A DNA stretch of 45,038 nucleotides from an uncultured Dehalococcoidaceae bacterium (GTDB taxonomy: Bacteria; Chloroflexota; Dehalococcoidia; Dehalococcoidales; RBG-16-60-22): contig CAZPSP010000002.1 in the NCBI GenBank assembly GCA_964589285.1, forward strand, positions 1 through 45,038, in the 5' to 3' direction. Of this stretch, positions 1 through 17,653 are shown in pieces. The position numbers were made by a program, and so were the translations under genes. Position 1 is the first letter of the stretch. Every line of letters starts with the position of its first letter. Under the pieces are notes generated by a model, which worked only from the letters and a program-made list of their open reading frames with translations, ran no database searches and had not been told where the DNA came from.

Positions 1-1784
1 GCGCTCAGCAAACCGAGATTACTCCGGATATCGATGTCCCGGCCGCTCCAGAAGGTGGCGAACGGCGCCATGTCATGGGTATTCAAGGCCGCCACCATGT
101 CAGCGGGAATTTTCCCCAGGGATTTACCGCTGCTGTCTGCAAGTTCATAGGTAATGATGAACATTCTCCGCAGGCCGTGCCGGGACATGGACTTACGGAC
201 ATAACCAGGCACATTGCCCAGATCTTCCCCAATTATCTCGCACTGAGCTCGGTTTGATTCGATACAGAGTACAGCGTACAACTCTTCCGGCCGGTAACGG
301 ACGTAAATACCTTGCGAAGCCTCCAACCCCTCCGGTATCCAGAAAAGCCGGTGCAGACCCATGACATGGTCGATGCGCAGCATGCCGGCATCAGCCATGT
401 TGTGGCGGAGGTAGTCCCGGACATACCGGTAGCCGTCTTCACGGATGCGCTCGGGGTGTAGCGGTGGAAAACCCCAGTCCTGTCCATTGGTGAAAATGGC
501 ATCCGGCGGCGCCCCGGATGAAGACCCGAGAGCGAACAGTTCCTGGTTACGCCAGACATCGTAACCGTTCCGGTGGACGCCGAGAGGGAGGTCAAAGTAG
601 AGAGTTACACCGTTCTGTTTCGCGCTGGCGGCCAGCTCGTCGATCTGGTCGCTGGCCAGCCACTGGGTATAGAGATAATAGCGGTACGCCGTTTCATCAT
701 AATCACCAACACGGATATCCCCATTCCGCAGACGTTCCGGCCAGGATTGCCACACCTGCCGGCGTGAGTCCATGACGGCGCGGAACCGGGCATATTGTTC
801 AATGTCCGGATTGTTCCGGATGAAATCATCGAAGGCGGTTGACCGTACCGGGTCCTCCGTAACCCCTTGGGCCATCCTGAGCATAAGCCTTTTCTTTATC
901 TCCATACCACCGCGATAGTCAACCAGGCGATCCCTGCGCAGAGCCACCAGGGCGGATTGCATGTCAGCGTTTTCGTAGAGCTGACGTATCTTCGGATTGG
1001 AGACGAACTCCGGAGCTTTTCGAGGATCGATGTAGAATTCGTTCCAGGCGAGTCTGGTGACCGGAGAATAGGGGCTGGGGTCGAAAGGTTCGTCCAAAAA
1101 AACCGGCAGCAGCGGCAATGTTCCAACCACGCTCCCGCCCCATCCTGCCACGACACCACCGAGCGAGCGGAGGTCCGAAAAATCACCGCTGCCAAAACTA
1201 TGATTTGTCTCCAGGGCATAGAGCGGGAGGAAGACACCCCATTCGCGGACGTTTTCCGGTTGAGCATAGGTTCTCATAGGGGCCGCGAAGATAGTAGCTT
1301 CGAGGCTGCGTCGCTCCAGTTCCAGTATAAAACGGTGGTAACCGAACGGAAGCGCATGAGGCAGAAAATACCGTAAGGTGAGGTAAGTTTCCCCGTCAAT
1401 TTCCGCCCGGCGCAGTACCGGTAACTCTGATAAGCGTACATCCAGGGTCCTTGTCTCACCGGACTCGGTGATGAGCGTCGCCCGGCATGTTCCACGCGTT
1501 GCTCTTTCCGGTACGGTTAACATTATTTCGGGAAGTCGTTCGTCCCAGGCAACTACCACCGGTTCCATGCCGCGTGCCGCCGGTTCACGTTCTTTTCGCC
1601 GCAGGGCTTCGCTCAAGCTCGCCGCGGAAGAACCGATGTTCTCTCCCAGCGCGACGAGCGCGGCGCGGAGGCTTTCTTCCGGGGCGTAGTTGAAACTTTT
1701 CCCCGCGCCGTCATAGGCGATCAGGACGCCATATAATTTCGCCAGTTGACGCAGTTTCCGGGTTTCTTCTCTGGGTGTTTTCAT
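1..1784 (-). CDS. malQ: 4-alpha-glucanotransferase (amylomaltase, GH77), C-terminus cut by window edge
   Basis: Absent from the ORF track because it has no stop inside the window. The reverse frame opens at ATG 1784..1782 (MKTPREETRKLRQLAKLYGVLIAYDGAGKSFNYAP...). It was hand-translated at both ends and around 361-480 without meeting a stop, and the track's omission fits an ORF that is open to base 1. Hand translation of 361-480 gives DWGFPPLHPERIREDGYRYVRDYLRHNMADAGMLRIDHVMGLHRLFWIPEG, typical of the GH77 catalytic region. Confidence 0.85.
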   Translation of the reverse strand, partial: MKTPREETRKLRQLAKLYGVLIAYDGAGKSFNYAPEESLRAALVALGENIGSSAASLSEALRRKEREPAARGMEPVVVAWDERLPEIMLTVPERATRGTCRATLITESGETRTLDVRLSELPVLRRAEIDGETYLTLRYFLPHALPFGYHRFILELERRSLEATIFAAPMRTYAQPENVREWGVFLPLYALETNHSFGSGDFSDLRSLGGVVAGWGGSVVGTLPLLPVFLDEPFDPSPYSPVTRLAWNEFYIDPRKAPEFVSNPKIRQLYENADMQSALVALRRDRLVDYRGGMEIKKRLMLRMAQGVTEDPVRSTAFDDFIRNNPDIEQYARFRAVMDSRRQVWQSWPERLRNGDIRVGDYDETAYRYYLYTQWLASDQIDELAASAKQNGVTLYFDLPLGVHRNGYDVWRNQELFALGSSSGAPPDAIFTNGQDWGFPPLHPERIREDGYRYVRDYLRHNMADAGMLRIDHVMGLHRLFWIPEGLEASQGIYVRYRPEELYAVLCIESNRAQCEIIGEDLGNVPGYVRKSMSRHGLRRMFIITYELADSSGKSLGKIPADMVAALNTHDMAPFATFWSGRDIDIRSNLGLLS

Positions 1785-2039
1785 ATTACTATTATTGTAA
1801 TATCTATCAGAGCGTGCGTCCATGTCCCCTCTAACGAGACATGAAGAACTGCGCATGTATCACCTGAGCTACGCCGGGTCAATAGACCGTTCCATTAAGC
1901 ACAGAACCGCACCCGTTTTGTCCCTTATAAGCCGTCTTTTTCACTACGTTAATGCTCGAATTCTTCCACCGCTTGTCTAGTAAATCAGTGGCGGCTGGTC
2001 TATAATCAATTCGAAGCATACGGAACGGAGAGACCGCCG

Positions 2040-4181: not shown

Positions 4182-4357
4182 GGTCAGTACCTCTTTGATT
4201 TGTACTTTCAACCTCATTTTACGTTCCATGGAACATCATTTGATGTGATAAATGTCTCGTTGACGTTGACAGTATCGTAATGTACAGAGTATCCTTTTTA
4301 AAGAGCGGCTCCCGTTTGCTTCCGTCTCATGAATCATCTTCAGGAGGGTACATTATT

Positions 4358-5746
4358 ATGGCTAATAACCCATCAAATCAAACATTTCTCGAACCAGCAC
4401 AGAATGTTGACATCATCCGCGAATGTGATGTCGTCGTCGTCGGCGGCGGCCCTGGCGGTCATGCTGCGGCAGTAGCGGCAGCCCGCAACGGCGCCGATAC
4501 AGTCCTCGTCGAACGATACGGCATTCTCGGCGGACAGGCCACCGGCGGTGTCGTGACCATAATTCCCAACCTGACCGGCCGGGACGGCAAACAGGAGATC
4601 ATCGGCCAGACCCAGGAATGGATCGACCGCTTGGATAAGCGCGAAGCCACCGCCTATGCGCCGAAAGAACTCTGGGGCAACACCGATAAAGCGCTCGTCA
4701 AGGAATGGTTCGACCGTTCTTTTTTCAACGTCCGTATCGACCGTATCATTTACAGCGCACTCTTCGATGCTGAAATTCTGAAATGCGCCCTCAACGATAT
4801 GGTCGAGGAAGCCGGCGTCAAGGTTTATCTTCACGCCTGGGGCGCCAAGACCATCATGGACGGACGGCGCGCCCGCGGCGTCATTATTGAAAGCAAGTCC
4901 GGGCGCCAGGCCATCATGGCCAAAGTAGTCATTGACGGCACGGCAGACGGCGACCTTTTCCCGTCGGCGGGGATCACCTATGATACGGACATCGACCCCA
5001 CCATCCGCATCGCCAATCTTTCCCTCTGCTACTGGATCAGCAATGTCGATATCAAGAAGAACATGGAATTCCGCAACAATAACCCGGACAAGTTCGGGGA
5101 ACTGATGCGGGAATTAATGCAGAAAGGCGGCCATCCCGGCTACATGCGGAGCTGCCTGAAGAACCAGGACGACATCGTCTGGGTACACCCGCGCTATGCC
5201 AATAAGAGCCAGATCGACATCGAAGAACTGACCCGTGTCGAATTCGAAGGCCGCAAGAGAATGCTGCTCAGCCATGATTTCTTCAAGGCCTACATGCCGG
5301 GCTTCGAGAAGAGTTTTATCTCCCTCTCCGCTCCGCAGATCGGCACCCGCAGCAGCCGGCGCGCCCACACAGATTATATTCTGAGGGAAGAAGACGCCCA
5401 GGCCGACCGCGTGTTCAGCGATACGATTGCTGTTTTCCCGGACGTTGATCGCGGTGAAGACTCGATGAACCATCCTTCCCTGCACGTCCCCTACCGCTGC
5501 CTTATTCCGAAGGGCGTGGAAAACATGCTCGTCTCCTGCCGCGCGTTCGGGTCCGACCAGGTCATCCAGAACTTCTTCAATCTCATCCCGCACTGCATCG
5601 CCTTCGGTGATGCCGCCGGCGCCGCAGCAGCCCTCGCGGTGAAGGAGACCGACGGCAAGGTACGCGATATCAACATGGACGAACTCAAGAGCCGGCTTGT
5701 CAAGGCCAACGTGCTGCTGCCGGAAGAGAGCAAGATCAACGCCTGA
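4358..5746 (+). CDS. FAD-dependent oxidoreductase (FAD_oxidored/PF12831-like)
   Basis: Dinucleotide-binding motif VVVVGGGPGGHAAAVAAARNGADTVLVERYGILGGQATGG. The start was set at ATG 4358, 8 nt after AGGAGGG; the track start at 4280 lacks an SD. Confidence 0.8.
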   Translation: MANNPSNQTFLEPAQNVDIIRECDVVVVGGGPGGHAAAVAAARNGADTVLVERYGILGGQATGGVVTIIPNLTGRDGKQEIIGQTQEWIDRLDKREATAYAPKELWGNTDKALVKEWFDRSFFNVRIDRIIYSALFDAEILKCALNDMVEEAGVKVYLHAWGAKTIMDGRRARGVIIESKSGRQAIMAKVVIDGTADGDLFPSAGITYDTDIDPTIRIANLSLCYWISNVDIKKNMEFRNNNPDKFGELMRELMQKGGHPGYMRSCLKNQDDIVWVHPRYANKSQIDIEELTRVEFEGRKRMLLSHDFFKAYMPGFEKSFISLSAPQIGTRSSRRAHTDYILREEDAQADRVFSDTIAVFPDVDRGEDSMNHPSLHVPYRCLIPKGVENMLVSCRAFGSDQVIQNFFNLIPHCIAFGDAAGAAAALAVKETDGKVRDINMDELKSRLVKANVLLPEESKINA

Positions 5747-5826: not shown

Positions 5827-7224
5827 ATGAACAAGGGATACCAAAGGACTGTCCGCGAACCGGCCCGTGATATCCGTGTCTGGAAAGAAGCCGACGTCGT
5901 TGTTATCGGCGGAGGACCGGGTGGGGTAGGCGCGGCAGTGGCCGCCGCCCGCAGCGGAGCGAAGACGGTGCTCGTCGAGCGGTACGGTCATCTCGGCGGG
6001 ATGGCGACCGGCGGCCTCGTTAACATTCTCCCCAACCTCAGCGACATGGCCGGGAAACAGCGTATTTACGGGATCACCCAGGAACTTATCGATCGCCTGG
6101 ACAAACGCGGCGGGACCTCATATCCTCCCAAAGAAAGATGGGGATCGACGGACGAGGACATCGTCAGCTATTACCTCGATGCCAACCTCGGCTGGTTCTA
6201 CGTGCGGGAAGACGCCGGTATCAGGAAAAAGCGCGTGCACTACACAGCGGTAGTCGACCCGGAAATCTTCAAAGACGAACTGAACACCATCGTCCTGGAG
6301 TCCGGAGCGGACCTCCTGCTGCATAGCTGGGGAACACAGGTCATGATGGAAGGCAATGCCGTGACCGGTGTATTCTTCGAGAGCAAATCCGGGAGGCAAG
6401 CCGTACTCGGGAAAGTCATTATAGACGCCACGGGGGACGGAGACATCTTCGTCGCCGCCGGGGCCGAGTATGACAATAATTGCGATAATTCCCGCCGGAC
6501 CGCCTGGCTGGCGCTCGTCTGGTGGATGGCCAACGTAGACCTGGATCGGTACGACCGGTTCAAGAAAGAACAGCCGGAAGAATTCAAAGGGCTGATGCAG
6601 GAACTGGTCAAACTGGGCGGCTACCCGGTGTTCTTCAAGGGCGTCCTGAAGAACCAGGAAGGCGTGGTCTGGTACCACTGCATGCAGCCGCAGCAGGAAC
6701 GTACCGACGCCATGGACGTCGAGCAGTTGACGCGCATCGATGTCCGTGCCCGGCAGCGTGCCGTTATTACCTATGAGTTTATGAAAAAGCACGTTCCCGG
6801 CTTTGAGAAATGCTTCATCATGCAGACAGCACCGCAACTCGGCACCCAGGGCGGGCGCAGGATCGTCGGAGAATACACCATCAGTGAAAAGGACCTCACG
6901 ACGGACGAGGTGTTCCCGGACACTATTGCCGTTTTGGCGAACAACGATTCAGGGGAAATATCGGCGAAGCATCCCGCTCTGTGTATACCCTACCGGACGC
7001 TGGTACCGAAGAGTGTGGACGGCCTGCTGGTGGCAGGTCGGCACTTCTCCTGTTCCGATACCATTAACGAATTCTTCAATATTATTCCACACTGCCTTTG
7101 CTACGGCCAGGCGGCCGGCACTGCGGCGGCAATGGCAGCCAAAGACGGAATACAACCGCGGCAGGTCGATTATAAAGAATTACAACGGAACCTGGTCAAA
7201 CAGGGCGTTAACATACCCGAGTAA
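5827..7224 (+). CDS. FAD-dependent oxidoreductase, tandem paralog of 4358..5746
   Basis: VVVIGGGPGGVGAAVAAARSGAKTVLVERYGHLGGMATGG. Blocks shared with the upstream gene include TQE(W/L)IDRLDKR, ESKSGRQA, DGDLF/DGDIF and NLIPHCI/NIIPHCL. GGAGG lies upstream of the ATG. Confidence 0.85.
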   Translation: MNKGYQRTVREPARDIRVWKEADVVVIGGGPGGVGAAVAAARSGAKTVLVERYGHLGGMATGGLVNILPNLSDMAGKQRIYGITQELIDRLDKRGGTSYPPKERWGSTDEDIVSYYLDANLGWFYVREDAGIRKKRVHYTAVVDPEIFKDELNTIVLESGADLLLHSWGTQVMMEGNAVTGVFFESKSGRQAVLGKVIIDATGDGDIFVAAGAEYDNNCDNSRRTAWLALVWWMANVDLDRYDRFKKEQPEEFKGLMQELVKLGGYPVFFKGVLKNQEGVVWYHCMQPQQERTDAMDVEQLTRIDVRARQRAVITYEFMKKHVPGFEKCFIMQTAPQLGTQGGRRIVGEYTISEKDLTTDEVFPDTIAVLANNDSGEISAKHPALCIPYRTLVPKSVDGLLVAGRHFSCSDTINEFFNIIPHCLCYGQAAGTAAAMAAKDGIQPRQVDYKELQRNLVKQGVNIPE

Positions 7225-8000: not shown

Positions 8001-8615
8001 TTACGCTGCGGCCGCCAGGGCTTTCTTGACGAACTCGTAGCCGAGATCGAACGCCTTGAAGTTGATCGCCGCGACCTTTTGATTGAAACGCGAAGCGATG
8101 GCGTCCTTGGCGTGCTGCTGATCGATTGGCATCAGCCCCGAACCGAACAACGCCCCGAGCATGACCACGTTGGCCGCCTGAAGAGAACCAGCTTCTTTCG
8201 CCAGACCGCTGGCATCGAGTGTGATGATGCGGTTCGTAACTTCCTTAAGCTTGGTCACTATCTGGTCGGGAGTGGGATAGCCGCTCTTGCCCAGGTACAC
8301 CGTGAATGGCATGACCGTGGTGGTGTTGAGAACAACGACGCTGTTTTTAGCCAGGTACTGGATATTCCGCAGCGCTTCAGAAGGTTCCACGGCGACAAGG
8401 ACGTCGCACTTGCCTTCCGGGGTCATCGGAGCGATGACGTCGCCGCCGAGCCGCAGGTTGCTGAACACGGAACCGCCGCGCTGGGCCATGCCGAGGACCT
8501 CGGATCCTTTCACGGCGACACCGCCGTTAACCGCCGCGTTACCGAGCAGTTCCGAGACCAGGACGACACCTTGACCGCCGGTACCGCAGATGATTATGTT
8601 AATCTCTCTCGTCAT
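8001..8615 (-). CDS. iorB: indolepyruvate/2-oxoacid:ferredoxin oxidoreductase subunit beta (gamma-domain type)
   Basis: MTREINIIICGTGGQGVVLVSELLG... The ATG lies 3 nt after the iorA stop and is preceded by AGGAGAG. Confidence 0.8.
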   Translation of the reverse strand: MTREINIIICGTGGQGVVLVSELLGNAAVNGGVAVKGSEVLGMAQRGGSVFSNLRLGGDVIAPMTPEGKCDVLVAVEPSEALRNIQYLAKNSVVVLNTTTVMPFTVYLGKSGYPTPDQIVTKLKEVTNRIITLDASGLAKEAGSLQAANVVMLGALFGSGLMPIDQQHAKDAIASRFNQKVAAINFKAFDLGYEFVKKALAAAA

Positions 8616-8618
8616 CGT

Positions 8619-11600
8619 TTACTCTCCTGCCTTGATCGCTTCGTGGGGACAAACCTGCGCGCACACGCCGCAGCCGGGGCACTGGGTTTCATCGACCGAC
8701 GCTTTACCGTCCTCGATAATGAGGGCCGGACAGCCGAGCAGATTGATGCATATCTTACAGTCGCAGCTCAGGCAGCGTTTCGCCTCAGCGATGGCCTGCT
8801 CCTTACTGAAGCCGAGATTGACTTCCTTGAAGTTTGTTTTCCGCTTGGCAACCGGAGCGGCCGGAGCGCTGGTCCGGGCTTCTTTGGCAAGCCCCCAGGT
8901 CTCGACGATGAGTTTCGACTCGAAGACGGCCTCACCTTCCCGTCCTACATCCATCGGTTCGCCTTTGAGGAAAAGATCAATCGATTTAGCGGCTTTGCGG
9001 CCCGCCGCCATGGCCTGGACAACGGTCGCGGCGCCGGTAACGGCGTCGCCGCCGGCAAACAGACCTTTAACCGGGGTAGCCAGTGTCACGGGGTCGGCGT
9101 TGATGCGGCCATCGGTGACAGCCTGGCCGTTGAGGAAATCGAGTTCCGGCTCCTCGCCTACGGCGGCGATGATGAGGTCGGCATCGATGGTGAATTCGGA
9201 ACCGGTCACGGGCACCGGCCGCCGCCGCCCGCTGGCATCAGGTTCGCCAAGTTGCATCTTGACACATTCGAGCCCGATGGCCTTACCGCTGGCGGTGATA
9301 ACCTTGTTCGGTCCAGAGAGAAGCGTCAGTTTCACGCCTTCTTCTTCCGCTTCGTGAATCTCCGTGGGAATAGCGGGCATCTCGTCGCGGGAACGCCGGT
9401 AGACTATCTGGACATCTTGAACGCCAAGCCTGACACAGGTACGGGCGCAGTCGATAGCCACATTGCCTCCACCGATGACGACGGCCCGGTTCGGAGATAC
9501 TATCCGTTCACCGGAATTGACCTTAAAGAGAAATTCGGTGCCGTCGATGACGCCGTGGGAGTTACTGTTGGGGATGCCGAGATCACGTCCTTTATGGGCG
9601 CCGACGGCCAGGAAAACGGCATCGTACTGTTTCTGGAGGTCGGCGAGTTGTACGTCCTTGCCTATCCGGGTATTAAGCTTGATATCCACACCAAGTCTGG
9701 CAACGAGGTCGGTCTCGCTCTGCAGGACTTCACGCGGCAAACGGAAGTCCGGGATACCCCAGGCCATCATACCACCGAGCGAGGAAAGGGCTTCATAGAT
9801 GGTCACTTTATAGCCGGCCTTACGGAGGTCCCAAGCAGCCATCATCCCCGCCGGACCGCCACCGACAACGGCGACTTTCTCAGTTTTCTCCGCCGGAATG
9901 TTCAAGTCATCGGTATATTTACCATATTCCACCGCGGCCCGTTTCAGGCCGTTGATGGAAATAGCTTCCTCAACGTTATTGCGTTCGCACTTGCCTTCGC
10001 AGGGAGCGGTACAAACACGGCCGATGATGGAGGGGAAGGGAAGGGTCTGCTTGATGAGCGCTAGGGCTTCATCGAACTTGCCTTCCTTGATGAATTTCAC
10101 ATAGCCGCGGATATCGATATGGAGCGGGCAGGTAGCCTGGCAGGCCGGGGGACTGCCGGCGACGCATTTCTCCGTGTCCACGACATAGGGGACGGTCTTG
10201 ACGCCTTCCTTCTTCTTTTGGCGAGCGTCCAGGATATTGCAGAGCCGGCGGGAAATGACCAGCGCCGGTCCATCAAACCGGATGGCGCGTTCCAGGCTGT
10301 CGATGAGCGAAGCCAGGTCGAAAGCATCGACGACCTCTACGAATTTAACACCTGCCGCCTGGGCGATATTTTCTATCTTTATGCCCAGGTCCACATTTTC
10401 CAGTGAGCCCGGGTGCGGCTGGAAGCCGGTCATGCCCGTGGTGGAATTGTCCATGACCACCATGGTCAGGTTAGCATTGTTATAGACCGCGTTTATCATG
10501 GGCGCGATACCGGAGTGGAAAAAGGTGGAATCGCCGAGGTGGCCGATGACCGGCCGGTCCAGAACGTGGGCGAACCCGTTCGCCATCCCGAAGCCGCCGC
10601 CCATACAGACCGCGGTATCATCGGTATTCAGCGGTTCGCCGGCGCCGAGGGCGTAGCAGCCGATGTCGCCGGTCTTGACGGCTTCTTTACCGGTCTCCTG
10701 CTGGTAACGCTTGGCCGCAATGTTGATAGCGTAGGCAGTAGCGCGATGAGGGCAGCCGGCGCACATGGTCGGCGGCCGCAGCGGCAGGAGCGATTCCGTT
10801 TCCTTACGGAGGGCATCGATCTCCTGGAAATCGACCGGAGGTTTAACACCGGTCAGCTTGTTGAGGGCCTCGGCCACGAGCCGTGTCGAAAGTTCCCCGG
10901 CCAGGGTCAGGAGGTCCTTACCGTGGACTTTGGTGGTAATATCGTTATCCTTGGCAACAACCTTGGTGGCCTCTTCGACGAAGGGTTCGAGTTCTTCGAC
11001 GACGAGGACCTTATCAACCGATTCGAGCATTTTCTTGATGAGTTTGACCGGCGCCGGGTACGGCGTACCGATCTTGAGGAACGAGACCTTGTCTTCCAGT
11101 CCCATCCACTTGATGGCTTCGATGGCATAGCCATTGGAAATGCCGTTGGCGATGACGCCGAGCTTAGCACCCGGTTTGAGGGTCAACTGGTTGTACGGCA
11201 AATCGTCGACGATGGCAGCGATCTTTTTCATCCGTTCGATGAGCAGCCGCCGCCGCGCGCGGAAATTGGCGGGTAAGCAGACCAGCCGCTGGTAGTCCTT
11301 GACGAATTCAGCTTTGCGGGCCGTCTTATCTATGTTCCCGAAGGTAACGTCTCCTCGCGCATGGCCGATACGGGTCACCGAACGAAGCATCCACATCTGC
11401 CCGTACTGCTCGGAAAGACGGAATGCATCCGCCATCATGTCCTTGGCTTCCTGGGCGGAAGCTGGTTCGAAAACAGGAATATAGGCCTGGCGGGCCAGCA
11501 AGCGATTGTCTTGTTCGTTCTGGGAGCTCCACTGACCGGGATCGTCAGCGGAAATAACGACGAGGCCGCCGAGCCCCATATAAGAGGCCGACATCAGGGG

Positions 11601-11903
11601 GTCGTGAGCGACGTTGACGCCGACATGCTTCATGATCGCCAGGGACCGCAGACCGGTGGTCGCGGCTGCCATGGCAATCTCGAGCGCCACTTTTTCATTA
11701 ATCGACCATTCCGCGTACATACCAGCGGCTTCAGCGTTCTCCACCAGGGTGGTCGTAATTTCGCTGGATGGAGTGCCGGGATACGAGGCTACCACCTGGA
11801 CGCCGGCTTCGATTGCCCCGCGGGCGATCGCTTCATTACCCAACATGAACAAACGGGCGCCGGGAGCATCGGACGTAATGGTCACTTGTGCTACCTTATT
11901 CAA
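8619..11903 (-). CDS. iorA: indolepyruvate:ferredoxin oxidoreductase alpha subunit fused with an internal GltD-like NAD(P)H-dependent FAD/Fe-S oxidoreductase module
   Basis: 1094 aa, TTG start after AGGAGGAG. Residues 1-570 form the IorA/TPP part (GNEAIARGAIEAGV, CAGCPHRATAY, GDSTFFHSG). Residues ~575-985 (nt ~8949..10181) are GltD-like (CPLHIDIRGYVKFIKEGKFDEALALIKQTLPFPSIIGRVCTAPCEGKC, KVAVVGGGPAGMMAAWDLRKAGYKVTIYE, VVIGGGNVAIDCA, LFAGGDAV). The C-terminus is the usual IorA ferredoxin domain (CLSCDCKIC...CPGCGVCAQVCP). Confidence 0.85.
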   Translation of the reverse strand: MNKVAQVTITSDAPGARLFMLGNEAIARGAIEAGVQVVASYPGTPSSEITTTLVENAEAAGMYAEWSINEKVALEIAMAAATTGLRSLAIMKHVGVNVAHDPLMSASYMGLGGLVVISADDPGQWSSQNEQDNRLLARQAYIPVFEPASAQEAKDMMADAFRLSEQYGQMWMLRSVTRIGHARGDVTFGNIDKTARKAEFVKDYQRLVCLPANFRARRRLLIERMKKIAAIVDDLPYNQLTLKPGAKLGVIANGISNGYAIEAIKWMGLEDKVSFLKIGTPYPAPVKLIKKMLESVDKVLVVEELEPFVEEATKVVAKDNDITTKVHGKDLLTLAGELSTRLVAEALNKLTGVKPPVDFQEIDALRKETESLLPLRPPTMCAGCPHRATAYAINIAAKRYQQETGKEAVKTGDIGCYALGAGEPLNTDDTAVCMGGGFGMANGFAHVLDRPVIGHLGDSTFFHSGIAPMINAVYNNANLTMVVMDNSTTGMTGFQPHPGSLENVDLGIKIENIAQAAGVKFVEVVDAFDLASLIDSLERAIRFDGPALVISRRLCNILDARQKKKEGVKTVPYVVDTEKCVAGSPPACQATCPLHIDIRGYVKFIKEGKFDEALALIKQTLPFPSIIGRVCTAPCEGKCERNNVEEAISINGLKRAAVEYGKYTDDLNIPAEKTEKVAVVGGGPAGMMAAWDLRKAGYKVTIYEALSSLGGMMAWGIPDFRLPREVLQSETDLVARLGVDIKLNTRIGKDVQLADLQKQYDAVFLAVGAHKGRDLGIPNSNSHGVIDGTEFLFKVNSGERIVSPNRAVVIGGGNVAIDCARTCVRLGVQDVQIVYRRSRDEMPAIPTEIHEAEEEGVKLTLLSGPNKVITASGKAIGLECVKMQLGEPDASGRRRPVPVTGSEFTIDADLIIAAVGEEPELDFLNGQAVTDGRINADPVTLATPVKGLFAGGDAVTGAATVVQAMAAGRKAAKSIDLFLKGEPMDVGREGEAVFESKLIVETWGLAKEARTSAPAAPVAKRKTNFKEVNLGFSKEQAIAEAKRCLSCDCKICINLLGCPALIIEDGKASVDETQCPGCGVCAQVCPHEAIKAGE

Positions 11904-12161
11904 CTATACTCCTCCTAACCTGAATACTGGCACACCCCCCGGGGAACGAATAGCCTGTGGACGCCGGGGAGCGGCGGTTTTACGCATTGGCGTGGTGAAA
12001 TGTATTACTTTATTGTGGGGGCGAAAGCGGAGTTTATTGGTTTGCGTACGGCAATGACCACTTTTCCCTATATTATTCTACACACTTGCGGACGGGCTGG
12101 CAACCGCGAGACGGATGGGGGGACCGCCGGAGAGGAGATAACAGCAGGAAAAGGTGAAATG

Positions 12162-12190
12162 TTGACAGTATGTGCTCGTTGAGCTAATAT
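12162..12190 (+). promoter_or_regulatory. sigma-70-like promoter of the cupin-ferredoxin-cupin cassette
   Basis: TTGACA (12162-12167), a 17-nt spacer and TAATAT (12185-12190), about 30 nt upstream of ATG 12222. Confidence 0.45.
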
Positions 12191-12221
12191 TGCGGCAAGC
12201 AACCGCGAGGAGGTTTAACGA

Positions 12222-12731
12222 ATGGCTGGCAAGTATGATCACTACATCATCGAGTACGACCCAAGTATGTTTCCCAATGAACGCCGCCCGGTCATGGCTT
12301 ACATGGATGATACTTTGGCCAAGGGCAGCCACTTCTACCTGATCCACTGGATCCTGCCCGGATTCGCGGATAATCTGGGCGATTTCCCCTACGCCGGGCA
12401 TCCGCCGCACATCCATAAAGATGCGGAACTGCTCTTCCATATCGGGACCGACCCCCAGAACCCGATGGACCTGGGTTCCGAGGTGGTGATGTATCTCGGG
12501 CCCGAACTGGAAGAACATCACATCACGCGTACCTGCTGTATCTGGATACCGCCTAACTTCATTCACTCTCCATGGAAACCGATACGGATCGACAGACCAT
12601 GGATATTCATGGAATTCAACCAGGGACCGGTGCACACGGAAAAGTCCTACCGGCAGATATTGCCGAAAGAAGCACGGGAGAAGATCAACTGGGACATGTG
12701 GCCGGACGACAAATACGAGATACCGGCGTAG
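12222..12731 (+). CDS. cupin-fold protein of unknown function
   Basis: GAGGAGG SD. His/Glu cupin-like motifs: GHPPHIHKDAELLFHIG and IWIPPNFIHSPW. No characterised family recognised. Confidence 0.7.
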   Translation: MAGKYDHYIIEYDPSMFPNERRPVMAYMDDTLAKGSHFYLIHWILPGFADNLGDFPYAGHPPHIHKDAELLFHIGTDPQNPMDLGSEVVMYLGPELEEHHITRTCCIWIPPNFIHSPWKPIRIDRPWIFMEFNQGPVHTEKSYRQILPKEAREKINWDMWPDDKYEIPA

Positions 12732-12769
12732 CCGAACCATTAACCAATACATTATTTTTGGAGGATATC

Positions 12770-12985
12770 GTGGTTTACAGTATCGACATGAAAAAGTGCC
12801 TGAAATGCGGTCTGTGCGTGACCCAGTGCCCGCATCACGCCTTCGTGGTAACAGACAAGGTAACCGAGCCCGACGGCCTGATACTCTACACGGTGAAGAT
12901 AGACCAGGACCTCTGCACGGAATGCGGCGAATGCATGGATACCCTGGAATGGTGGTGCCCGGCCAAAGCCATTGTACGGTCGTAG
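12770..12985 (+). CDS. small 2x[4Fe-4S]-type ferredoxin
   Basis: CLKCGLCVTQCP and CTECGECMDTLEWWCP motifs. GTG 12770 lies 4 nt after GGAGGA. The longer track ORF from 12572 overlaps the upstream gene and is rejected. Confidence 0.7.
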   Translation: MVYSIDMKKCLKCGLCVTQCPHHAFVVTDKVTEPDGLILYTVKIDQDLCTECGECMDTLEWWCPAKAIVRS

Positions 12986-13095
12986 CAGCCGTAACCAACC
13001 ATCGACGATATACCAACAATAGCCGGGAAACGGGATTTGCCGGTGTTCTGTTGCTGTCAGCCCGCTAAATGAACAGGGCTTGAAGGAGGACCATC

Positions 13096-13593
13096 ATGGC
13101 AGAGATGAAATACAGCCGGTACTTTCTTAACGAACTACCTGACGAACAGCGCTTCAAGGGATTCGCCAAGATGCCAAGTATGGTAGCTTATACGGATAAT
13201 GACATTATCCAGGACTCGAAGTATTTTTCCGTGATGATCATGGGAGAAGAAGCCACCAAGATGGCCGGACACGGTCCCCATATTCACAACGACCCGGAGT
13301 TGCTGGTGGCCCTCGGTACCGATATGTCAAACCCGCGCGACCTCGGTGCTAAAATGGAAATGTGTATGGGCCCGGAGATGGAAAGCCACATCATCACCGA
13401 ATCGACGATGATCTGGATACCCGCCAAGTTCATTCACGCGCCGTTCCGTATCCTGGAAGTGACCCGCCCCTTCATCTTCATCCAATGCCAGTATGCCCCC
13501 AAACTCACCGAGACCTCCCTCAAGAAGCTCGTCTCGGAAGACCTGTGGGACAAGATGGTCTTCATCGACGCGGACGGGACGCAGAAGGATTAA
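13096..13593 (+). CDS. cupin-fold protein of unknown function, paralog of 12222..12731
   Basis: AAGGAGGA SD. GHGPHIHNDPELLVALG and IWIPAKFIHAPF align with the first copy. Confidence 0.7.
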   Translation: MAEMKYSRYFLNELPDEQRFKGFAKMPSMVAYTDNDIIQDSKYFSVMIMGEEATKMAGHGPHIHNDPELLVALGTDMSNPRDLGAKMEMCMGPEMESHIITESTMIWIPAKFIHAPFRILEVTRPFIFIQCQYAPKLTETSLKKLVSEDLWDKMVFIDADGTQKD

Positions 13594-13678: not shown

Positions 13679-16600
13679 CTAGACCAACTGTAACTGGAGC
13701 TGGAATTCCAGCGTGTTACCCGGTTTCAGTTCCCGTATATCTTCGCCGAGGGCTACTTCAATGGGGCCGATCTCCTGCGGACGGCTGGCCACTTTTAATG
13801 TCTCCCCGGTGATACGCACCTCCAGCCAGTGGCCCCGGTACCTTATCTCGAATGCAACTGACTTGAGTCCTTTGGGCAGGGCGGGATCGAAACGAAGAAT
13901 ATTGCCTCTCGTTTCGATGCCGGTATAAGCCCTCTGTATTATGTCTACTGTCCCCGCCATGGCGCCGAGGTGGATGCCTTCATGGGTGGTGCCTCCCTGT
14001 ATGTCCAGTACATCGCTTTCCAGTGCGTCCTGGAACAAATGCCAGGATACCTCGCGGCGTGACCTTGCCAACACCCAGGAATGCACTACCCGGCTCAATG
14101 TGGAGCCGTGAGAAGTCCTTTCCAGGTAATACTCTATGTTGCGCGGGATGGTTTCATGCTCGAAAGGATAACCCAAGCGATCAAACAGCTCTTTCATCTC
14201 GTCGGCGGAAAAGAGGTAGAACAGCATCAGGACATCAGCCTGCTTGGAGACCTTGTAACGGTTCGGGGTGTCTCCTTCGGCTTCGAGGATGCGGTCCAGC
14301 CGGTGGATATCTCCGTACTTCTTCCTGTAGCCGTTCCAGTCGAACTCAAGGAGGTCCCCATACCCTTCGAACTGGCTGATAATATCGCCGTCATGGAACG
14401 GTATGATCATTTTATGGCTTATCTCATTCCAGCGGTCCAGTTCCTCTTTACGCAGCACCAGATTTTCCCAGATGTGATTGCGCCGGTAGATGGAAATCAT
14501 CTCCAGCGACTCCAGGGCCCGGCACATGAGCCATACCGTCATGACGTTGGTATAAGCGTTATTATTGATGCCGGGCTCTTCTGCTCCGGGGTAGCGATCA
14601 TGGAACTCATCCGGGCCCATGACCTTGTGAATCTCATAGCGGTCAAGGGAATGGTTGTACCGGCACTTGCTGGCCCAGAACCGCGCCAGTTCTATAAGGA
14701 TTTCCGTGCCGTAGTATGTCATGAAATCAATGTCCCCTGAAACCTGATAATGCTGCCAGACATTATAGGCTACGGCCAGGTTAATATGCCGTTCAAGCTG
14801 GGAATTATCGGGTATCCAGCGGCCGGATTTGGGGTTCAGATGCAGGGTCTGGGCTTCCTCGCGGCCGTTGCTGCCGCTCTGCCATGGGAACATCGCGCCA
14901 CTGTATCCTGCCGTGAGGGCTGCCCGCCTGGCGGCCGGCAACCGGCGGTAGCGGTAGCTGAGGAGCGACTTGGTAATGTCCGGTATCCGTAGATTAAGCA
15001 AGTGGAAGATGAACAATTCGTCCCACATGATGAGTCCGCGATAGGCCTCGCCATGAAGGCCGCGCGGCGGGATGCCGGCATCGAGGGAGATGGTATTAGG
15101 CGATACGGTCTGGAGCAAATGGAAAATGTGGAGATTAAGGATCTGCGCCATACGCACACTTTCAGTATCGACAGTGATATGCCAGATCTCCCAGAGATGC
15201 CCCCACCCGGTGATATGGCTTGCCAGGAGACCGGCAAAATCGGCTGCGAAACGGACTTCTTCCCTGGCGGCGAGCGAGCTCTCAGTAATACCGCGATCGC
15301 GTGAGTTGTACAGAGCGGCGATTTTCTCGACTCGCACCAGTTGCCCTTTTTTTATGGGGACCGTGAACTCCTGTGCAATGTAGCCTTCCTCCCGCAGAAC
15401 GCGGCGTTCCGGACGGTACCGCTCTTCACCGATAAAGACCCTGGTGCGGACAGCCTCGGCGATATGGATATGAGACTGGTTGGTCTCCGCCAGCAGCCAG
15501 ATGATATTGCTGCCATCTGAGCCGTTATCCACCTGGAGGAGATGATGGTTGTTTAACTGGCGGTACCGCTTGACGAGCGTATTATTCACGTTCCCGTCTA
15601 TGGCCGAACGGACCTGTATGCTTCCTTCCCAGTCTTCCGCAACCAGGGTCGTCTCCAAAGCGGCAACGTGCGCCATCTGGATATGAACGAAACGGCGTTC
15701 CGTCAAACGCGTATGGCGCCCGGCGACGTCGGCAAATCGCACCGACCGCGTCAGGACACCGCGCCCCGTATCGAGTTCCTGCCGGTAGTCCAGGATGTTC
15801 ACAGAAGCAAGATCTAACCAGTCCCCGTCTTCGATCCTGAACGTAAGGGGCAGCCAGTTGGGAACATTGACCAGGCTTTCATTCTCGATAGTTTGACCGG
15901 CTACCTCACTGGTCAGCCGGTTATAGATGCCGGCGATATAGGTACCGGGATAATGGTATTCACCGGCGGATGATTCCGGGGCAGCCGCACGTGTTACGAA
16001 GTAGCCGTTACCGGTAGCGCAGAGGACCTCCCGTAATTGTTCAGAAGCGGGATCATATTCTTCATACGAGAATGTGTGCGTATCTCTGGAAACGTCTTTC
16101 TCCGCATTTTTCGCCATTTCCTCCAGGAATAGGACCGCCTGCCGCACGTCCTGCAGGATGTAATCAGCCTCTGTGGGACGGTGCTCCGGGCCGATCAGAA
16201 CGCCGATACCGTAGCCTTCAATTGCCTTAAAAGCGTCTTCATCAGTGATATCATCGCCGATGAACAGGGGCACGAGCCGTGAACCGTCCACGTGGACCGT
16301 GCGGGCAAGGTGCAGCAGGGTTCTCCCTTTATCCCAGTCAAGGTCGGGACGAAATTCAGCTTTTTTGCCATCCCGAACCAATCTCAGTTCGGTTTCCGCC
16401 GCGGACAATTCGGAGAGGTATTGTTCGACTGCGGACACAGCGGAGGCATCAGCCTCATCATATTTGACCGTTATGGAATACGGCAGGCGCCGGATATGGA
16501 CGCCTGGCAGCGTGCCCAACCGGTCTTCCAGGTTCTTTTCCGTGTTGTTGATGGCGGGCAGAAAGTGTCTTCCCAGGCTGACCGCAAAGGGTTCTCCGGG

Positions 16601-17653
16601 GTCTCCGACCGCGAACCCATGGCTGCTGGCATACACAATTGTCTCCAGCCCGAGTCGCTCCCGCACGGAACTGACAGCTTCTTTACTCATGATGACAACC
16701 GGCCATCTCTCCGAGACCGTTCTCAGGGCGGTACGCAACCGCTGGAACAACTGGCTCTCTTGACCTTCCAAAAGGGGCTTAAGCGTGCCGTTATAGTCCA
16801 GGAAGAGAGCCGGAATTCCCCGTGATAGCTGCTGTAGTATCTTCTGGCTTTGCTGCAGGGCGGAAGGCAGGGAAGCCGCGTCATGTGTGTGTTCCTGAGG
16901 CAGTATTTTCAGCTCGGAAATGTCTCTGATGACAATGTCCGCGCCAAGTTTTTTCATTTCTTCCGTGTTATTGGCGCGGTCAACACCGATTACGATGGCG
17001 AAATCACCTGCGATACCGGCTTGCACTCCCGCGAGAGCATCCTCTACCATGGCGGAGCGTTGAGGAAATACGTTCAATTCACGCGCTGCTTGTAGAAATA
17101 TGTCCGGCTCCGGTTTACCTTTAAGACCAAGAGAGACAGATGCACGACCTTCAACGATGGCATCGAACAGGTCCGTGACACCAGCGGCATTCAGCACCTC
17201 CATGGCATTCTTGCTGGATGATATTACCGCTACTCGCTTGCCGCGGGATTTGAGTTCCTTGATAAAGTCAACGGTTGATTTGTAAGCGTCTGCGCCGTTT
17301 TCTTTCAGGTACTGTTGAAAATATCCGTTTTTCCTGTTGCCCAGGCCGCATACCGTTTCCGCCTCCGGAGGGTCGTCAGGGCTGCCGAAGGGAATTTTTA
17401 TATTCCGGGACTCCAAAAAGCTTTGAGCGCCTTCATACCTCGGTTTGCCGTCAACATAGAGACTGTAGTCGTTGACAATGTCGAATGGTACGTAATTTTC
17501 TTTATGCTCCCGGGCGCGTTCCTTGAGATAGTCATCGAACATTCGTTTCCAGGCCGCGGCATGCGCTCCTGCAGAGCGCGTGACCACACCATCCATATCG
17601 AGAATAACGGCGTCGATATTATCCAAATCCAGGACCGGTTGTTCATGCTGCAT
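13679..17653 (-). CDS. OtsB1-like tri-domain protein: beta-phosphoglucomutase-type HAD, a trehalose-6-phosphate-phosphatase-like HAD and a GH65 glycoside phosphorylase
   Basis: 1324 aa. The N-terminus has AVILDMDGVV (DxDG HAD motif I) and GKPEPDIF. The middle domain has ALFLDYNGTLKPL and GDDITDEDAF. The C-terminal ~800 aa are GH65-like (WHITVDTESVR, HGEAYRGLIMWDELF, THEGIHLGAMAGT). The architecture and length match mycobacterial OtsB1 (Rv2006, 1327 aa) as I recall it. Confidence 0.85.
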   Translation of the reverse strand: MQHEQPVLDLDNIDAVILDMDGVVTRSAGAHAAAWKRMFDDYLKERAREHKENYVPFDIVNDYSLYVDGKPRYEGAQSFLESRNIKIPFGSPDDPPEAETVCGLGNRKNGYFQQYLKENGADAYKSTVDFIKELKSRGKRVAVISSSKNAMEVLNAAGVTDLFDAIVEGRASVSLGLKGKPEPDIFLQAARELNVFPQRSAMVEDALAGVQAGIAGDFAIVIGVDRANNTEEMKKLGADIVIRDISELKILPQEHTHDAASLPSALQQSQKILQQLSRGIPALFLDYNGTLKPLLEGQESQLFQRLRTALRTVSERWPVVIMSKEAVSSVRERLGLETIVYASSHGFAVGDPGEPFAVSLGRHFLPAINNTEKNLEDRLGTLPGVHIRRLPYSITVKYDEADASAVSAVEQYLSELSAAETELRLVRDGKKAEFRPDLDWDKGRTLLHLARTVHVDGSRLVPLFIGDDITDEDAFKAIEGYGIGVLIGPEHRPTEADYILQDVRQAVLFLEEMAKNAEKDVSRDTHTFSYEEYDPASEQLREVLCATGNGYFVTRAAAPESSAGEYHYPGTYIAGIYNRLTSEVAGQTIENESLVNVPNWLPLTFRIEDGDWLDLASVNILDYRQELDTGRGVLTRSVRFADVAGRHTRLTERRFVHIQMAHVAALETTLVAEDWEGSIQVRSAIDGNVNNTLVKRYRQLNNHHLLQVDNGSDGSNIIWLLAETNQSHIHIAEAVRTRVFIGEERYRPERRVLREEGYIAQEFTVPIKKGQLVRVEKIAALYNSRDRGITESSLAAREEVRFAADFAGLLASHITGWGHLWEIWHITVDTESVRMAQILNLHIFHLLQTVSPNTISLDAGIPPRGLHGEAYRGLIMWDELFIFHLLNLRIPDITKSLLSYRYRRLPAARRAALTAGYSGAMFPWQSGSNGREEAQTLHLNPKSGRWIPDNSQLERHINLAVAYNVWQHYQVSGDIDFMTYYGTEILIELARFWASKCRYNHSLDRYEIHKVMGPDEFHDRYPGAEEPGINNNAYTNVMTVWLMCRALESLEMISIYRRNHIWENLVLRKEELDRWNEISHKMIIPFHDGDIISQFEGYGDLLEFDWNGYRKKYGDIHRLDRILEAEGDTPNRYKVSKQADVLMLFYLFSADEMKELFDRLGYPFEHETIPRNIEYYLERTSHGSTLSRVVHSWVLARSRREVSWHLFQDALESDVLDIQGGTTHEGIHLGAMAGTVDIIQRAYTGIETRGNILRFDPALPKGLKSVAFEIRYRGHWLEVRITGETLKVASRPQEIGPIEVALGEDIRELKPGNTLEFQLQLQLV

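What the first reader, a model, noticed from the sequence alone, without database searches (positions are those of the whole stretch)
8619..11903. IorA with an inserted GltD-like NAD(P)H:FAD/Fe-S module
Canonical IorA subunits are roughly 600 aa; this one is 1094 aa. The TPP/pyrimidine-binding part ends near residue 570. The sequence begins like the usual C-terminal ferredoxin domain (YVVDTEKC). It then continues for ~410 aa (nt ~8949..10181) with hallmark motifs of glutamate-synthase small-subunit-like proteins. These include an N-terminal Cys cluster (CPLHIDIRGYV...GRVCTAPCEGKC) and two Rossmann GxGxxG motifs (VVGGGPAGMMAAW and VIGGGNVAIDCA). The usual IorA 2x[4Fe-4S] tail follows (CLSCDCKIC...CPGCGVCAQVCP). 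A separate iorB follows 3 nt downstream. The architecture suggests electrons from arylpyruvate/2-oxoacid oxidation could pass directly to NAD(P)+, or be bifurcated with ferredoxin, within one polypeptide.
Basis: partly seen in the sequence, partly recalled or inferred. Interest (0 to 1): 0.6.

Follow-up and report, generated by a model that had tools for sequence, protein, structure and literature searches.

The report
Keto-acid oxidoreductase with built-in NADPH module
This is a real, intact gene for an anaerobic keto-acid-oxidising enzyme subunit (IorA) with a complete NADPH-binding iron-sulfur flavoprotein spliced into its electron-exit domain, so it probably hands electrons to NADP+ instead of free ferredoxin; the design is widespread in uncultured microbes, but I found no study of it.

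Summary
Window 8619-11903 (-) encodes a 1094-aa IorA. It scores above NCBI's IorA cut-off. It carries a roughly 467-residue Fer4_20 + FAD/NAD(P) cassette, and iorB starts 3 nt downstream.

It is not an assembly chimera:
- More than 110 independent full-length relatives keep every cluster cysteine.
- Contigs from another sample bridge both junctions.
- AlphaFold2 gives one compact fold (pLDDT 91, pTM 0.75).

- The cassette sits after the first cysteine of IorA's own ferredoxin domain. An unfused relative in the same family shows the uninterrupted motif.
- The cassette is collinear with the NADPH-input domain of StnC and of Bfu-type NfnA. In those enzymes that domain does not bifurcate.
- It shares their lysine cluster ligand (K654), where NfnB has glutamate.
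- It has the NADPH-type YRR motif.
- Fused forms are polyphyletic, in both the IorA and the module trees, so the fusion arose or was lost repeatedly.

Best reading (inferred, untested): a 2-oxoacid:NADP+ oxidoreductase with an internal five-cluster wire. Bifurcation is unlikely.

The architecture is common, and I found no paper describing it. This scan has already flagged it at least ten times on other DNA.

The parts
8619..11903 (-). iorA fusion gene, 1094 aa plus stop
   Evidence: TIGR03336 scores 718.5 bits (cut-off 650.9). There are full-length relatives at 55-91% identity.
11911..11916 (-). Shine-Dalgarno AGGAGG, 7 nt before the TTG start codon
   Evidence: Read directly from the sequence.
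10164..11903 (-). IorA core, residues 1-580. It holds the pyrimidine-binding domain, domain II, the TPP-binding domain with proximal-cluster Cys 381/384/416/555, and the first strand and first Cys (YVVDTEKC580) of the ferredoxin domain.
   Evidence: Pfam. It is 55% identical to the unfused IorA P0133 up to C580. The Cys are invariant in 113/113 clade members.
9909..10163 (-). Cassette part 1, residues 581-665: Fer4_20 two-cluster domain (C588, C592, C631, C635, C639, K654)
   Evidence: Pfam PF14691. Alignment to StnC 8oh5_C, NfnA 9bov_A and NfnB 4ylf_B. K654 aligns with StnC K170.
8949..9896 (-). Cassette part 2, residues 670-985: FAD and NADP(H) Rossmann domains (GGGPAG 681-686, GGGNVA 811-816, VYRRS 834-838)
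   Evidence: Pfam PF07992. The model superposes on P. furiosus NfnI-L at rmsd 1.8 A over 424 columns. The motifs are conserved.
8763..8948 (-). Cassette part 3, residues 986-1047: linker plus the 'NFKEV..EAKRC1044LSC1047' segment, which in NfnB/GltD is N-terminal (circular permutation)
   Evidence: phmmer second hit: residues 1017-1053 against T. maritima NfnB 13-48, 20.3 bits, i-E 0.0017. The region is collinear with StnC/NfnA up to about residue 569. The same arrangement is seen in the 14 related stand-alone modules inspected.
8622..8762 (-). Remainder of IorA's ferredoxin domain (domain V), residues 1048-1094: C1049, C1052, C1058, C1075, C1078, C1081, C1085
   Evidence: 52% identical to the tail of unfused P0133, E 3e-14. 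It has the IorA-specific C-x2-C-x5-CPA spacing. The unfused family member L109 has the same INLLGCPA..QCPGCG.CAQVCPH sequence.
8001..8615 (-). iorB, 204 aa, CoA-binding gamma-type domain. It starts 3 nt after the iorA stop.
   Evidence: Pfam POR 137 bits. TIGR03334 scores 195.9 bits, just under its cut-off of 205.8. It lies beside the fused gene in all 8 related loci.

Best explanation
iorA-iorB encode a TPP-dependent 2-oxoacid oxidoreductase, probably acting on arylpyruvates. Its electron acceptor is built in.

The reaction is the oxidative decarboxylation of the keto acid to acyl-CoA + CO2. Electrons would travel in this order:
1. TPP
2. the proximal [4Fe-4S] cluster (C381/C384/C416/C555)
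3. the two clusters of IorA's own ferredoxin domain
4. the two clusters of the inserted cassette
5. FAD
6. NADP+

The cassette is spliced in after the first Cys of the ferredoxin domain. Its terminal cysteines (C588/C592 and C1044/C1047) therefore lie only 7 residues and 1 residue from ferredoxin-domain cysteines (C580, C1049). This ties the two clusters side by side.

The flavin acts as a plain one-electron to two-electron converter, as in StnC and Bfu-type NfnA. It does not act as a bifurcating site.

Shown here: domain content, insertion point, homology, conservation and the fold prediction. Inferred: cluster assignments, the order of the wire, NADP+ as acceptor, and the substrate.
For: Family and operon:
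- IorA family score is above its cut-off, and iorB is adjacent.

Insertion point:
- It is defined by pairwise alignment to unfused IorA P0133.
- It is also defined by the unfused same-family gene L109. That gene reads EKC-DG-C-GV-C-INLLGCPA where the window has EKC[insert]C-KI-C-INLLGCPA.

Cassette identity:
- Residues 585-1050 are collinear with Csac NfnA 9bov_A 101-569 (431 bits), T. sibiricus NfnA 9n5u_A, and StnC 8oh5_C 101-570 (361 bits).
- Fold search agrees.
- In StnC this domain is an NADPH-oxidising, non-bifurcating input module that is itself inserted in a NuoG-like domain (PMC10482914).
- K654 aligns with StnC K170, the ligand of the FAD-proximal cluster. NfnB has Glu there.

Cofactor sites:
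- The VYRRS motif is shared with the NADPH-binding enzymes NfnB and StnC.
- 15 invariant Cys plus K654 give 16 ligands for four clusters, in addition to four Cys for the proximal cluster. All are invariant in 113/113 clade members.
- The module is as conserved as the IorA part, at 69-76% identity.

Other support:
- The AF2 model has pLDDT 91.4 and pTM 0.75.
- Some distant fused relatives carry xxE in place of YRR, as expected if nicotinamide binding matters and differs between clades.
- The genome also has a canonical IorA paralogue and at least 4 ADP-forming acyl-CoA synthetase genes.
Against: - Nothing here is biochemical.
- No coordinates were available, so cofactor distances were not measured.
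- Substrate specificity rests on family membership only.
- The neighbours give no pathway clue.
- Sending electrons at about -500 mV to NADP+ at -320 mV (established values) wastes energy. That is unexpected for an energy-limited anaerobe.
- The distal ferredoxin-domain cluster may still be exposed to free ferredoxin.
- The Lys-versus-Glu argument rests on a single residue.
Confidence: 0.6

Rival explanations
1. Dual-outlet enzyme. The ferredoxin-domain clusters still exchange electrons with free ferredoxin. The protein would then be both an IOR and a ferredoxin:NADP+ reductase, partitioning electrons between the Fd and NADPH pools according to demand.
For: - IorA's ferredoxin domain is fully retained, and all its Cys are invariant.
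- Stand-alone proteins of the same design, a ferredoxin split by the cassette (e.g. P0258, P0196), exist and must have external partners.
Against: - There is no evidence that a ferredoxin-binding face remains free once the cassette is attached at the first-motif cluster.
- The genome keeps a separate canonical IorA, which suggests a division of labour.
Confidence: 0.2
2. Flavin-based electron bifurcation or confurcation. The FAD would split NADPH electrons, NfnB-like. One electron goes up the Fe-S chain to drive reductive carboxylation of arylacetyl-CoA, or the reverse happens: 2-oxoacid oxidation reduces NADP+ together with a second carrier.
For: - The module is homologous to NfnB, whose FAD bifurcates.
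- IORs are thought to run in the biosynthetic direction in methanogens (PMC13285125).
Against: - The closest solved relatives (StnC, Bfu NfnA) use this domain without bifurcation.
- Lys, not the NfnB Glu, sits at the proximal cluster.
- No NfnA/PyrK-like [2Fe-2S]/FAD partner or other high-potential branch is present in the operon or its neighbours.
Confidence: 0.1
3. The flavin site reduces something other than NAD(P)+. For example, it might reduce polysulfide/sulfur or a disulfide, as reported for the relatives sulfide dehydrogenase and NsoC.
For: - NsoC (an NADPH-dependent sulfur oxidoreductase) is named as one of the closest StnC homologues (PMC10482914).
- SudA/NfnB-type proteins have been given such activities (PMC5736913).
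Against: - Both dinucleotide folds and the YRR motif are invariant.
- Those sulfur activities themselves use NADPH.
Confidence: 0.05
4. Artefact: a chimeric assembly or a read-through of two genes.
For: The source is a metagenome-assembled genome in 296 contigs.
Against: - The frame is uninterrupted.
- More than 110 full-length relatives from independent assemblies share the same order.
- A contig from another sample covers 9165-11112, and another covers 8602-9051. Both bridge the junctions with 0-3 differences.
- The AF2 fold is confident.
Confidence: 0.01

Closest known systems
Canonical indolepyruvate:ferredoxin oxidoreductase IorAB (Pyrococcus furiosus type; NCBIfam TIGR03336 / TIGR03334)
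   Same: - TPP core and proximal cluster
- C-terminal two-cluster ferredoxin domain with the C-x2-C-x5-CPA motif
- Separate iorB directly downstream
- 55-67% identity to unfused relatives in the same order
   Different: - A 467-residue flavoprotein cassette interrupts the ferredoxin domain after its first Cys.
- The predicted acceptor is NADP+ rather than free ferredoxin.
GltD-like NADPH-input domain of StnC (Sporomusa ovata StnABC, PDB 8OH5) and of NfnA in Bfu-type NfnABC (C. saccharolyticus 9BOV, T. sibiricus 9N5U)
   Same: - Collinear over about 465 residues at 33-40% identity
- The same permuted order, with the 'NF.EV..EA.RCL.C' segment after the FAD/NADPH domains
- Lys at the proximal-cluster ligand position
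- YRR NADPH motif
- In both cases the domain is an insertion into another Fe-S domain
   Different: - The host here is a TPP enzyme, not a NuoG-like subunit.
- No HydBC/Bfu bifurcating partners lie nearby.
- Electrons would flow towards NADP+, not from NADPH.
- The StnC C114 equivalent is Ile598.
NfnB (NfnSL large subunit; T. maritima 4YLF, P. furiosus 5JCA) and glutamate synthase small subunit GltD
   Same: Fold (TM 0.80-0.82 on the target, rmsd 1.8-3.9 A), two [4Fe-4S] clusters, FAD and the NADPH site.
   Different: - The N-terminal segment is moved to the C-terminal side.
- Lys replaces the NfnB Glu ligand.
- There is no NfnA or GltB partner.
- The module is not free-standing.
Pyruvate:NADP+ oxidoreductase of Euglena and Cryptosporidium (PFOR fused to an NADPH-cytochrome P450 reductase-like domain; Rotte et al. 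2001, listed in PMC13768988; details recalled from memory)
   Same: The same idea: a 2-oxoacid:ferredoxin oxidoreductase with a covalently attached flavoprotein that delivers the electrons to NADP+.
   Different: - The flavoprotein family is unrelated (FMN/FAD diflavin reductase).
- It is an end-to-end C-terminal fusion.
- It is eukaryotic and uses pyruvate as substrate.
- Not compared by sequence here.
Phenylglyoxylate:NAD+ oxidoreductase PadEFGHI of Azoarcus evansii (Hirsch et al. 1998, cited in PMC5109826)
   Same: An OFOR-type enzyme of aromatic metabolism that reduces a nicotinamide cofactor through an extra flavoprotein component.
   Different: - The flavoprotein PadH is a separate subunit of another family.
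- NF045765 matches the window's module at only 21.5 bits, over the Rossmann region.
- It is NAD+-linked.

Membership tests
IorA (TIGR03336, indolepyruvate ferredoxin oxidoreductase subunit alpha) | Whole-protein HMM score above the curated cut-off | tested here: met
   718.5 bits against 650.9
IorA (TIGR03336) | TPP-binding domain and four Cys for the proximal [4Fe-4S] cluster | tested here: met
   TPP_enzyme_C at 413-549 and GDSTFFHSG at 457. C381/C384/C416/C555 are invariant in 31 diverse fused proteins and in 113 clade members.
IorA (TIGR03336) | C-terminal 2x[4Fe-4S] domain contiguous with the TPP domain | tested here: not met
   The domain is present and IorA-like, but it is split by a 467-residue insert after its first Cys.
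IorA (TIGR03336) | Adjacent iorB partner | tested here: met
   iorB at 8001-8615, Pfam POR 137 bits. TIGR03334 scores 195.9 bits, slightly under its cut-off of 205.8. It is conserved in 8/8 related loci.
IorA (TIGR03336) | Arylpyruvate substrates and ferredoxin as acceptor | not testable with these tools
   Needs an enzyme assay.
StnC / Bfu-NfnA-type GltD cassette | Collinear Fer4_20 + FAD + NADPH domains with the 'EA.RCL.C' segment on the C-terminal side | tested here: met
   431 bits to 9bov_A 101-569 and 361 bits to 8oh5_C 101-570. Foldseek E values are 1e-47 to 1e-51.
StnC / Bfu-NfnA-type GltD cassette | Lys ligand of the FAD-proximal cluster (StnC K170) | tested here: met
   K654 aligns with K170 and is invariant in 113/113 clade members. 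It is Lys in 26 of 31 diverse fused proteins.
StnC / Bfu-NfnA-type GltD cassette | Part of a complex with HydBC/NuoEF-like bifurcating subunits | tested here: not met
   No such genes lie beside iorAB in the window or in 8 related loci. The rest of the genome was not searched for partners.
NfnB (bifurcating NfnSL large subunit) | Glu ligand at the proximal cluster, the N-terminal position of the first Cys segment, and an adjacent NfnA/PyrK-like small subunit | tested here: not met
   It has Lys654. The segment lies at 1017-1047. No nfnA-like neighbour is present.
NF009410 (PRK12771, 'NAD(P)-binding protein') | HMM score above the cut-off over the whole profile | tested here: met
   520.9 bits against 516, residues 578-1092 on profile positions 40-562 of 566. 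The family has no known function. Stand-alone relatives look like a ferredoxin split by the same cassette.

The most novel reading that the evidence does not exclude
The built-in flavoprotein makes this IOR an energy-coupling enzyme rather than a simple NADP+ reducer. For example, 2-oxoacid oxidation might reduce NADP+ and ferredoxin together. Alternatively, NADPH plus a second carrier might drive arylpyruvate synthesis. Either would be a new class of bifurcating or confurcating TPP enzyme. Independently of this, the same permuted cassette has been inserted at the same cysteine motif of IorA several times.
Probability: 0.12. Interest if true: 0.8.

Novelty: new variant of a known kind. Interest (0 to 1): 0.5.

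Why it matters
If the reading is right, many uncultured anaerobes convert amino-acid-derived keto acids directly into NADPH, bypassing the ferredoxin pool. These include Dehalococcoidales of digesters and sediments, and, by relatives, some Pseudomonadota and Gemmatimonadota.

That would change redox and energy budgets in metabolic models, because these genes are currently annotated simply as ferredoxin-dependent IorA.

It is also a clean example of modular evolution. A circularly permuted NADPH/FAD/Fe-S cassette, known from StnC and Bfu-type Nfn, has been plugged repeatedly into the same point of a ferredoxin domain.

Such a self-contained keto-acid:NADP+ enzyme could be useful for NADPH regeneration.

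Tried and rejected
1. Chimeric assembly: rejected.

2. End-to-end fusion of a tail-less IorA with a whole PRK12771-type protein, suggested by the NF009410 match running to residue 1092:
- Not favoured. The dicluster tail has the IorA-specific C-x2-C-x5-CPA spacing, whereas most stand-alone modules have the classic x3 spacing.
- The tail is 52% identical to unfused IorA tails.
- It cannot be excluded for the deeper ancestry of the cassette.
- My first tail HMM was built on the wrong motif and was discarded.

3. Relationship to PadH of phenylglyoxylate dehydrogenase: only a 21.5-bit Rossmann match.

4. Gene neighbourhood as a pathway clue: nothing useful. There are two convergent PF12831 flavoproteins, a LuxR regulator and unknowns.

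5. Literature: seven full-text searches and six papers read. None describes an IorA-GltD fusion. Demmer 2015 (PMC4571952) is not held.

Wider context came from the fetch from genomes instead.

7. The genome contigs pattern scan found only two further fused loci, because its patterns were query-specific.

8. Cofactor distances: the model's coordinates are not exposed, so they were not measured.

9. The 'joints' with short sides come from other organisms' conserved patches and were ignored.

10. RNA-library contigs identical to parts of the gene (run X6) are only a weak hint of expression.
Full report
**The observation**

Window 8619-11903 (- strand) is one open frame of 1094 codons. It starts at TTG 11903, 7 nt after an AGGAGG at 11911-11916. 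It ends 3 nt before the ATG of a 204-aa iorB at 8001-8615.

Pfam finds POR_N (29-206), TPP_enzyme_C (413-549), Fer4_20 (566-660), Pyr_redox_2 (676-968) and Fer4 (1069-1091). NCBIfam places the protein above the curated cut-off of the IorA equivalog TIGR03336 (718.5 against 650.9 bits). Residues 578-1092 score just above the cut-off of NF009410, a family of uncharacterised 'NAD(P)-binding' Fe-S flavoproteins.

**It is not an artefact**

- A word-indexed search returned more than 120 clusters of about 1097 aa with the same Pfam set at 55-77% identity. Where named, they come from Dehalococcoidales or Dehalococcoidia MAGs.
- In 301 genomes of the window's order, full-length matches (1-1094) occur in roughly 25-30 of the 47 genomes of its own family, and in a few genomes of three other families. 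Many other genomes carry an unfused IorA of about 640 aa at around 60% identity.
- A sample of 300 genomes spread across the whole phylum found no further fused copy.
- In 113 full-length clade members, every predicted cluster ligand, both glycine-rich dinucleotide motifs, the YRR motif and K654 are invariant or nearly so. The module is as conserved as the IorA part, at 69-76% identity.
- Logan contigs from a second sample of the source study cover 9165-11112 (3 differences) and 8602-9051 (0 differences). They bridge both junctions. Short identical contigs also occur in a sludge metatranscriptome library, which is only a weak hint of expression.
- AlphaFold2 with an 85-sequence alignment gives one compact fold with mean pLDDT 91.4 and pTM 0.75. 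The junctions are confident.

**Where exactly the insert sits**

The closest unfused representative is P0133 (636 aa). It aligns at 55% identity up to PYVVDTEKC580, and again at 52% identity (E 3e-14) from C1044 to K1091.

An unfused gene from a genome of the same family (L109) reads VPYHVDPEKC-DG-C-GV-C-INLLGCPAI...QCPGCGLCAQVCPH. The window reads VPYVVDTEKC[insert]C-KI-C-INLLGCPAL...QCPGCGVCAQVCPH. The cassette therefore interrupts IorA's own two-cluster ferredoxin domain (domain V of the PFOR nomenclature, PMC13768988) after the first Cys of its first motif.

The tail keeps the IorA-specific C-x2-C-x5-CPA spacing. That spacing is seen in essentially all unfused IorA tails. Most stand-alone GltD-like proteins with a dicluster tail have the classic x3 spacing.

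**What the cassette is**

phmmer against PDB sequences shows residues 585-1050 collinear with three solved proteins:
- residues 101-569 of NfnA of the C. saccharolyticus Bfu-type NfnABC (9BOV, 431 bits)
- T. sibiricus NfnA (9N5U)
- residues 101-570 of StnC of Sporomusa ovata (8OH5, 361 bits)

Foldseek on the model ranks the same three first. It superposes the module on P. furiosus NfnI-L at 1.8 A.

Against T. maritima NfnB there are two separate hits. Residues 587-982 match NfnB 46-462, and residues 1017-1053 match NfnB 13-48 (20.3 bits, i-E 0.0017). The second hit is the N-terminal 'R.NF.EV..EA.RCL.C' segment. Relative to NfnB and GltD, the cassette is therefore circularly permuted, with the break inside the first Cys motif. 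The same order is seen in the 14 related stand-alone modules that I inspected. The permutation is thus a property of this cassette type, not of the IorA fusion.

The StnC paper describes residues 102-565 as a GltD domain inserted into a NuoG-like domain. That domain oxidises NADPH at a non-bifurcating FAD and passes electrons down a cluster chain. Its FAD-proximal cluster is ligated by three Cys and K170, where bifurcating NfnB has Glu (PMC10482914). K654 of the window protein aligns with K170, and Csac and T. sibiricus NfnA also have Lys there. The VYRRS stretch matches the YRR of the NADPH-binding NfnB and StnC.

**Cofactor count and wire (inference)**

Invariant residues are:
- four Cys for the proximal cluster (381, 384, 416, 555)
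- six Cys in the Fer4_20 region (580, 588, 592, 631, 635, 639)
- nine Cys in the C-terminal region (1044, 1047, 1049, 1052, 1058, 1075, 1078, 1081, 1085)
- K654

Beyond the proximal cluster this gives 15 Cys + 1 Lys = 16 ligands for four further [4Fe-4S] clusters.

By homology, C588/C592/C1044/C1047 would bind the cassette's FAD-distal cluster, and C631/C635/C639/K654 the FAD-proximal one. C580/C1049/C1052/C1085 and C1058/C1075/C1078/C1081 would bind the two ferredoxin-domain clusters.

Only 7 residues separate C580 from C588, and only one separates C1047 from C1049. The first-motif ferredoxin cluster and the cassette's distal cluster must therefore be neighbours. From my memory of the D. africanus PFOR structure, the first-motif cluster is the distal, ferredoxin-facing one. 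I did not check this here. If it holds, the cassette occupies the place of the external ferredoxin.

The most likely chemistry is 2-oxoacid + CoA + NADP+ -> acyl-CoA + CO2 + NADPH. With textbook potentials (about -500 mV against -320 mV) this is strongly exergonic and effectively irreversible.

**Distribution and evolution**

An exhaustive search of 50%-identity representatives found about 30 further clusters of 1090-1260 aa at 36-45% identity with the same domain order. One of them (P0134, 1384 aa) also has IorB fused on. One cluster is labelled Arenicellales, a group of Gammaproteobacteria, and occurs in Tara data. ESM Atlas lists three clusters of 79-131 members, including Gemmatimonadota and Pseudomonadota.

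In a tree of the IorA part (31 fused, 55 unfused), the fused proteins need at least 7 changes on well-supported branches. An AU test rejects their monophyly (delta lnL 507, p 8e-6). In a tree of the module they fall in at least 6 places among other GltD-like modules. The window's protein groups with one fused and one unfused Dehalococcoidales representative. Its module groups with NuoF-domain-GltD fusion proteins.

The architecture has therefore been gained or lost repeatedly.

Eight of 31 diverse fused proteins carry xxE in place of YRR. That is the classic signature of NADH rather than NADPH preference, and it suggests clade-specific cofactor choice.

**Context**

iorAB is a two-gene unit. 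Downstream, and convergent, lie a LuxR-type regulator and two paralogous PF12831 flavoproteins. These are conserved in related loci, together with a 165-aa protein of no known family. No aminotransferase or ligase is adjacent.

The genome (2.77 Mb, 94% complete) also holds:
- a canonical 602-aa IorA paralogue at 44% identity
- about nine other GltD-like genes
- at least four ADP-forming acyl-CoA synthetase genes, which could harvest ATP from the acyl-CoA product

**Literature and earlier notes**

I found no paper describing an IorA-GltD/NfnB fusion. Recent reviews of PFOR diversity and of Nfn distribution do not mention it.

Functional analogues exist:
- phenylglyoxylate:NAD+ oxidoreductase, whose flavoprotein PadH is unrelated to this module (21.5 bits)
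- the eukaryotic pyruvate:NADP+ oxidoreductase (from memory)

This scan has already flagged the same architecture at least ten times on other DNA, including split three-gene forms and NAD-type forms. Those notes agree with my reading but are not independent evidence.

**Verdict**

The feature is real and conserved. It is a new variant of a known kind: an IOR whose ferredoxin domain carries a StnC-type NADPH/FAD/Fe-S cassette. It most likely makes the enzyme a 2-oxoacid:NADP+ oxidoreductase. Bifurcation is possible but disfavoured. The architecture is neither unique nor rare, so its interest is moderate and rests on the lack of any biochemical study.

Noticed in passing
window 13679-17653 (-): A 1324-aa single ORF fuses a beta-phosphoglucomutase-type HAD domain, a trehalose-phosphatase domain and a complete GH65 phosphorylase (N, catalytic and C domains). 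This looks like a three-enzyme trehalose/kojibiose-type pathway in one polypeptide. A MalQ 4-alpha-glucanotransferase lies at 3-1856 (-).
   Followed up: no
window 4280-5746 (+) and 5827-7224 (+): Two tandem paralogous PF12831 FAD-dependent oxidoreductases lie convergent to iorB. They are conserved next to the fused iorAB in 6 of 8 related loci. Their function is unknown.
   Followed up: partly
window 13096-13593 (+): A 165-aa protein with no Pfam or NCBIfam match is about 80% identical in four related loci near the fused iorA.
   Followed up: no
window 12078-13019 (-) versus 12222-12731 (+): The long 313-aa minus-strand ORF upstream of iorA has no family match. It overlaps a plus-strand 169-aa ORF, which also has no match. 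Which ORF is real was not settled.
   Followed up: no
L109 (G579:C193), same family: An unfused IorA, about 63% identical, has an intact EKC-DG-C-GV-C-INLLGCPA motif exactly where the window's gene carries the cassette. It is either the pre-insertion state or a clean loss.
   Followed up: partly
L111 (G487:C9:31500-36500): A fused iorA copy is broken into four frame segments, at 65-74% identity to the query. It is either a pseudogene or the result of indel errors in that assembly.
   Followed up: partly
P0134 (1384 aa, metagenomic): A relative in which IorA, the cassette, the ferredoxin tail and IorB are all fused into one polypeptide.
   Followed up: no
P0136, P0146, P0149, P0152, P0155, P0157, P0164, P0167: These fused relatives have an acidic residue (xxE) in place of the YRR motif, which suggests NADH-linked versions of the same enzyme design.
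   Followed up: partly
G000:C35:14258-15466: The window's genome encodes a protein matching the PadH (phenylglyoxylate dehydrogenase epsilon subunit) model at 306 bits, below its cut-off of 475.
   Followed up: no
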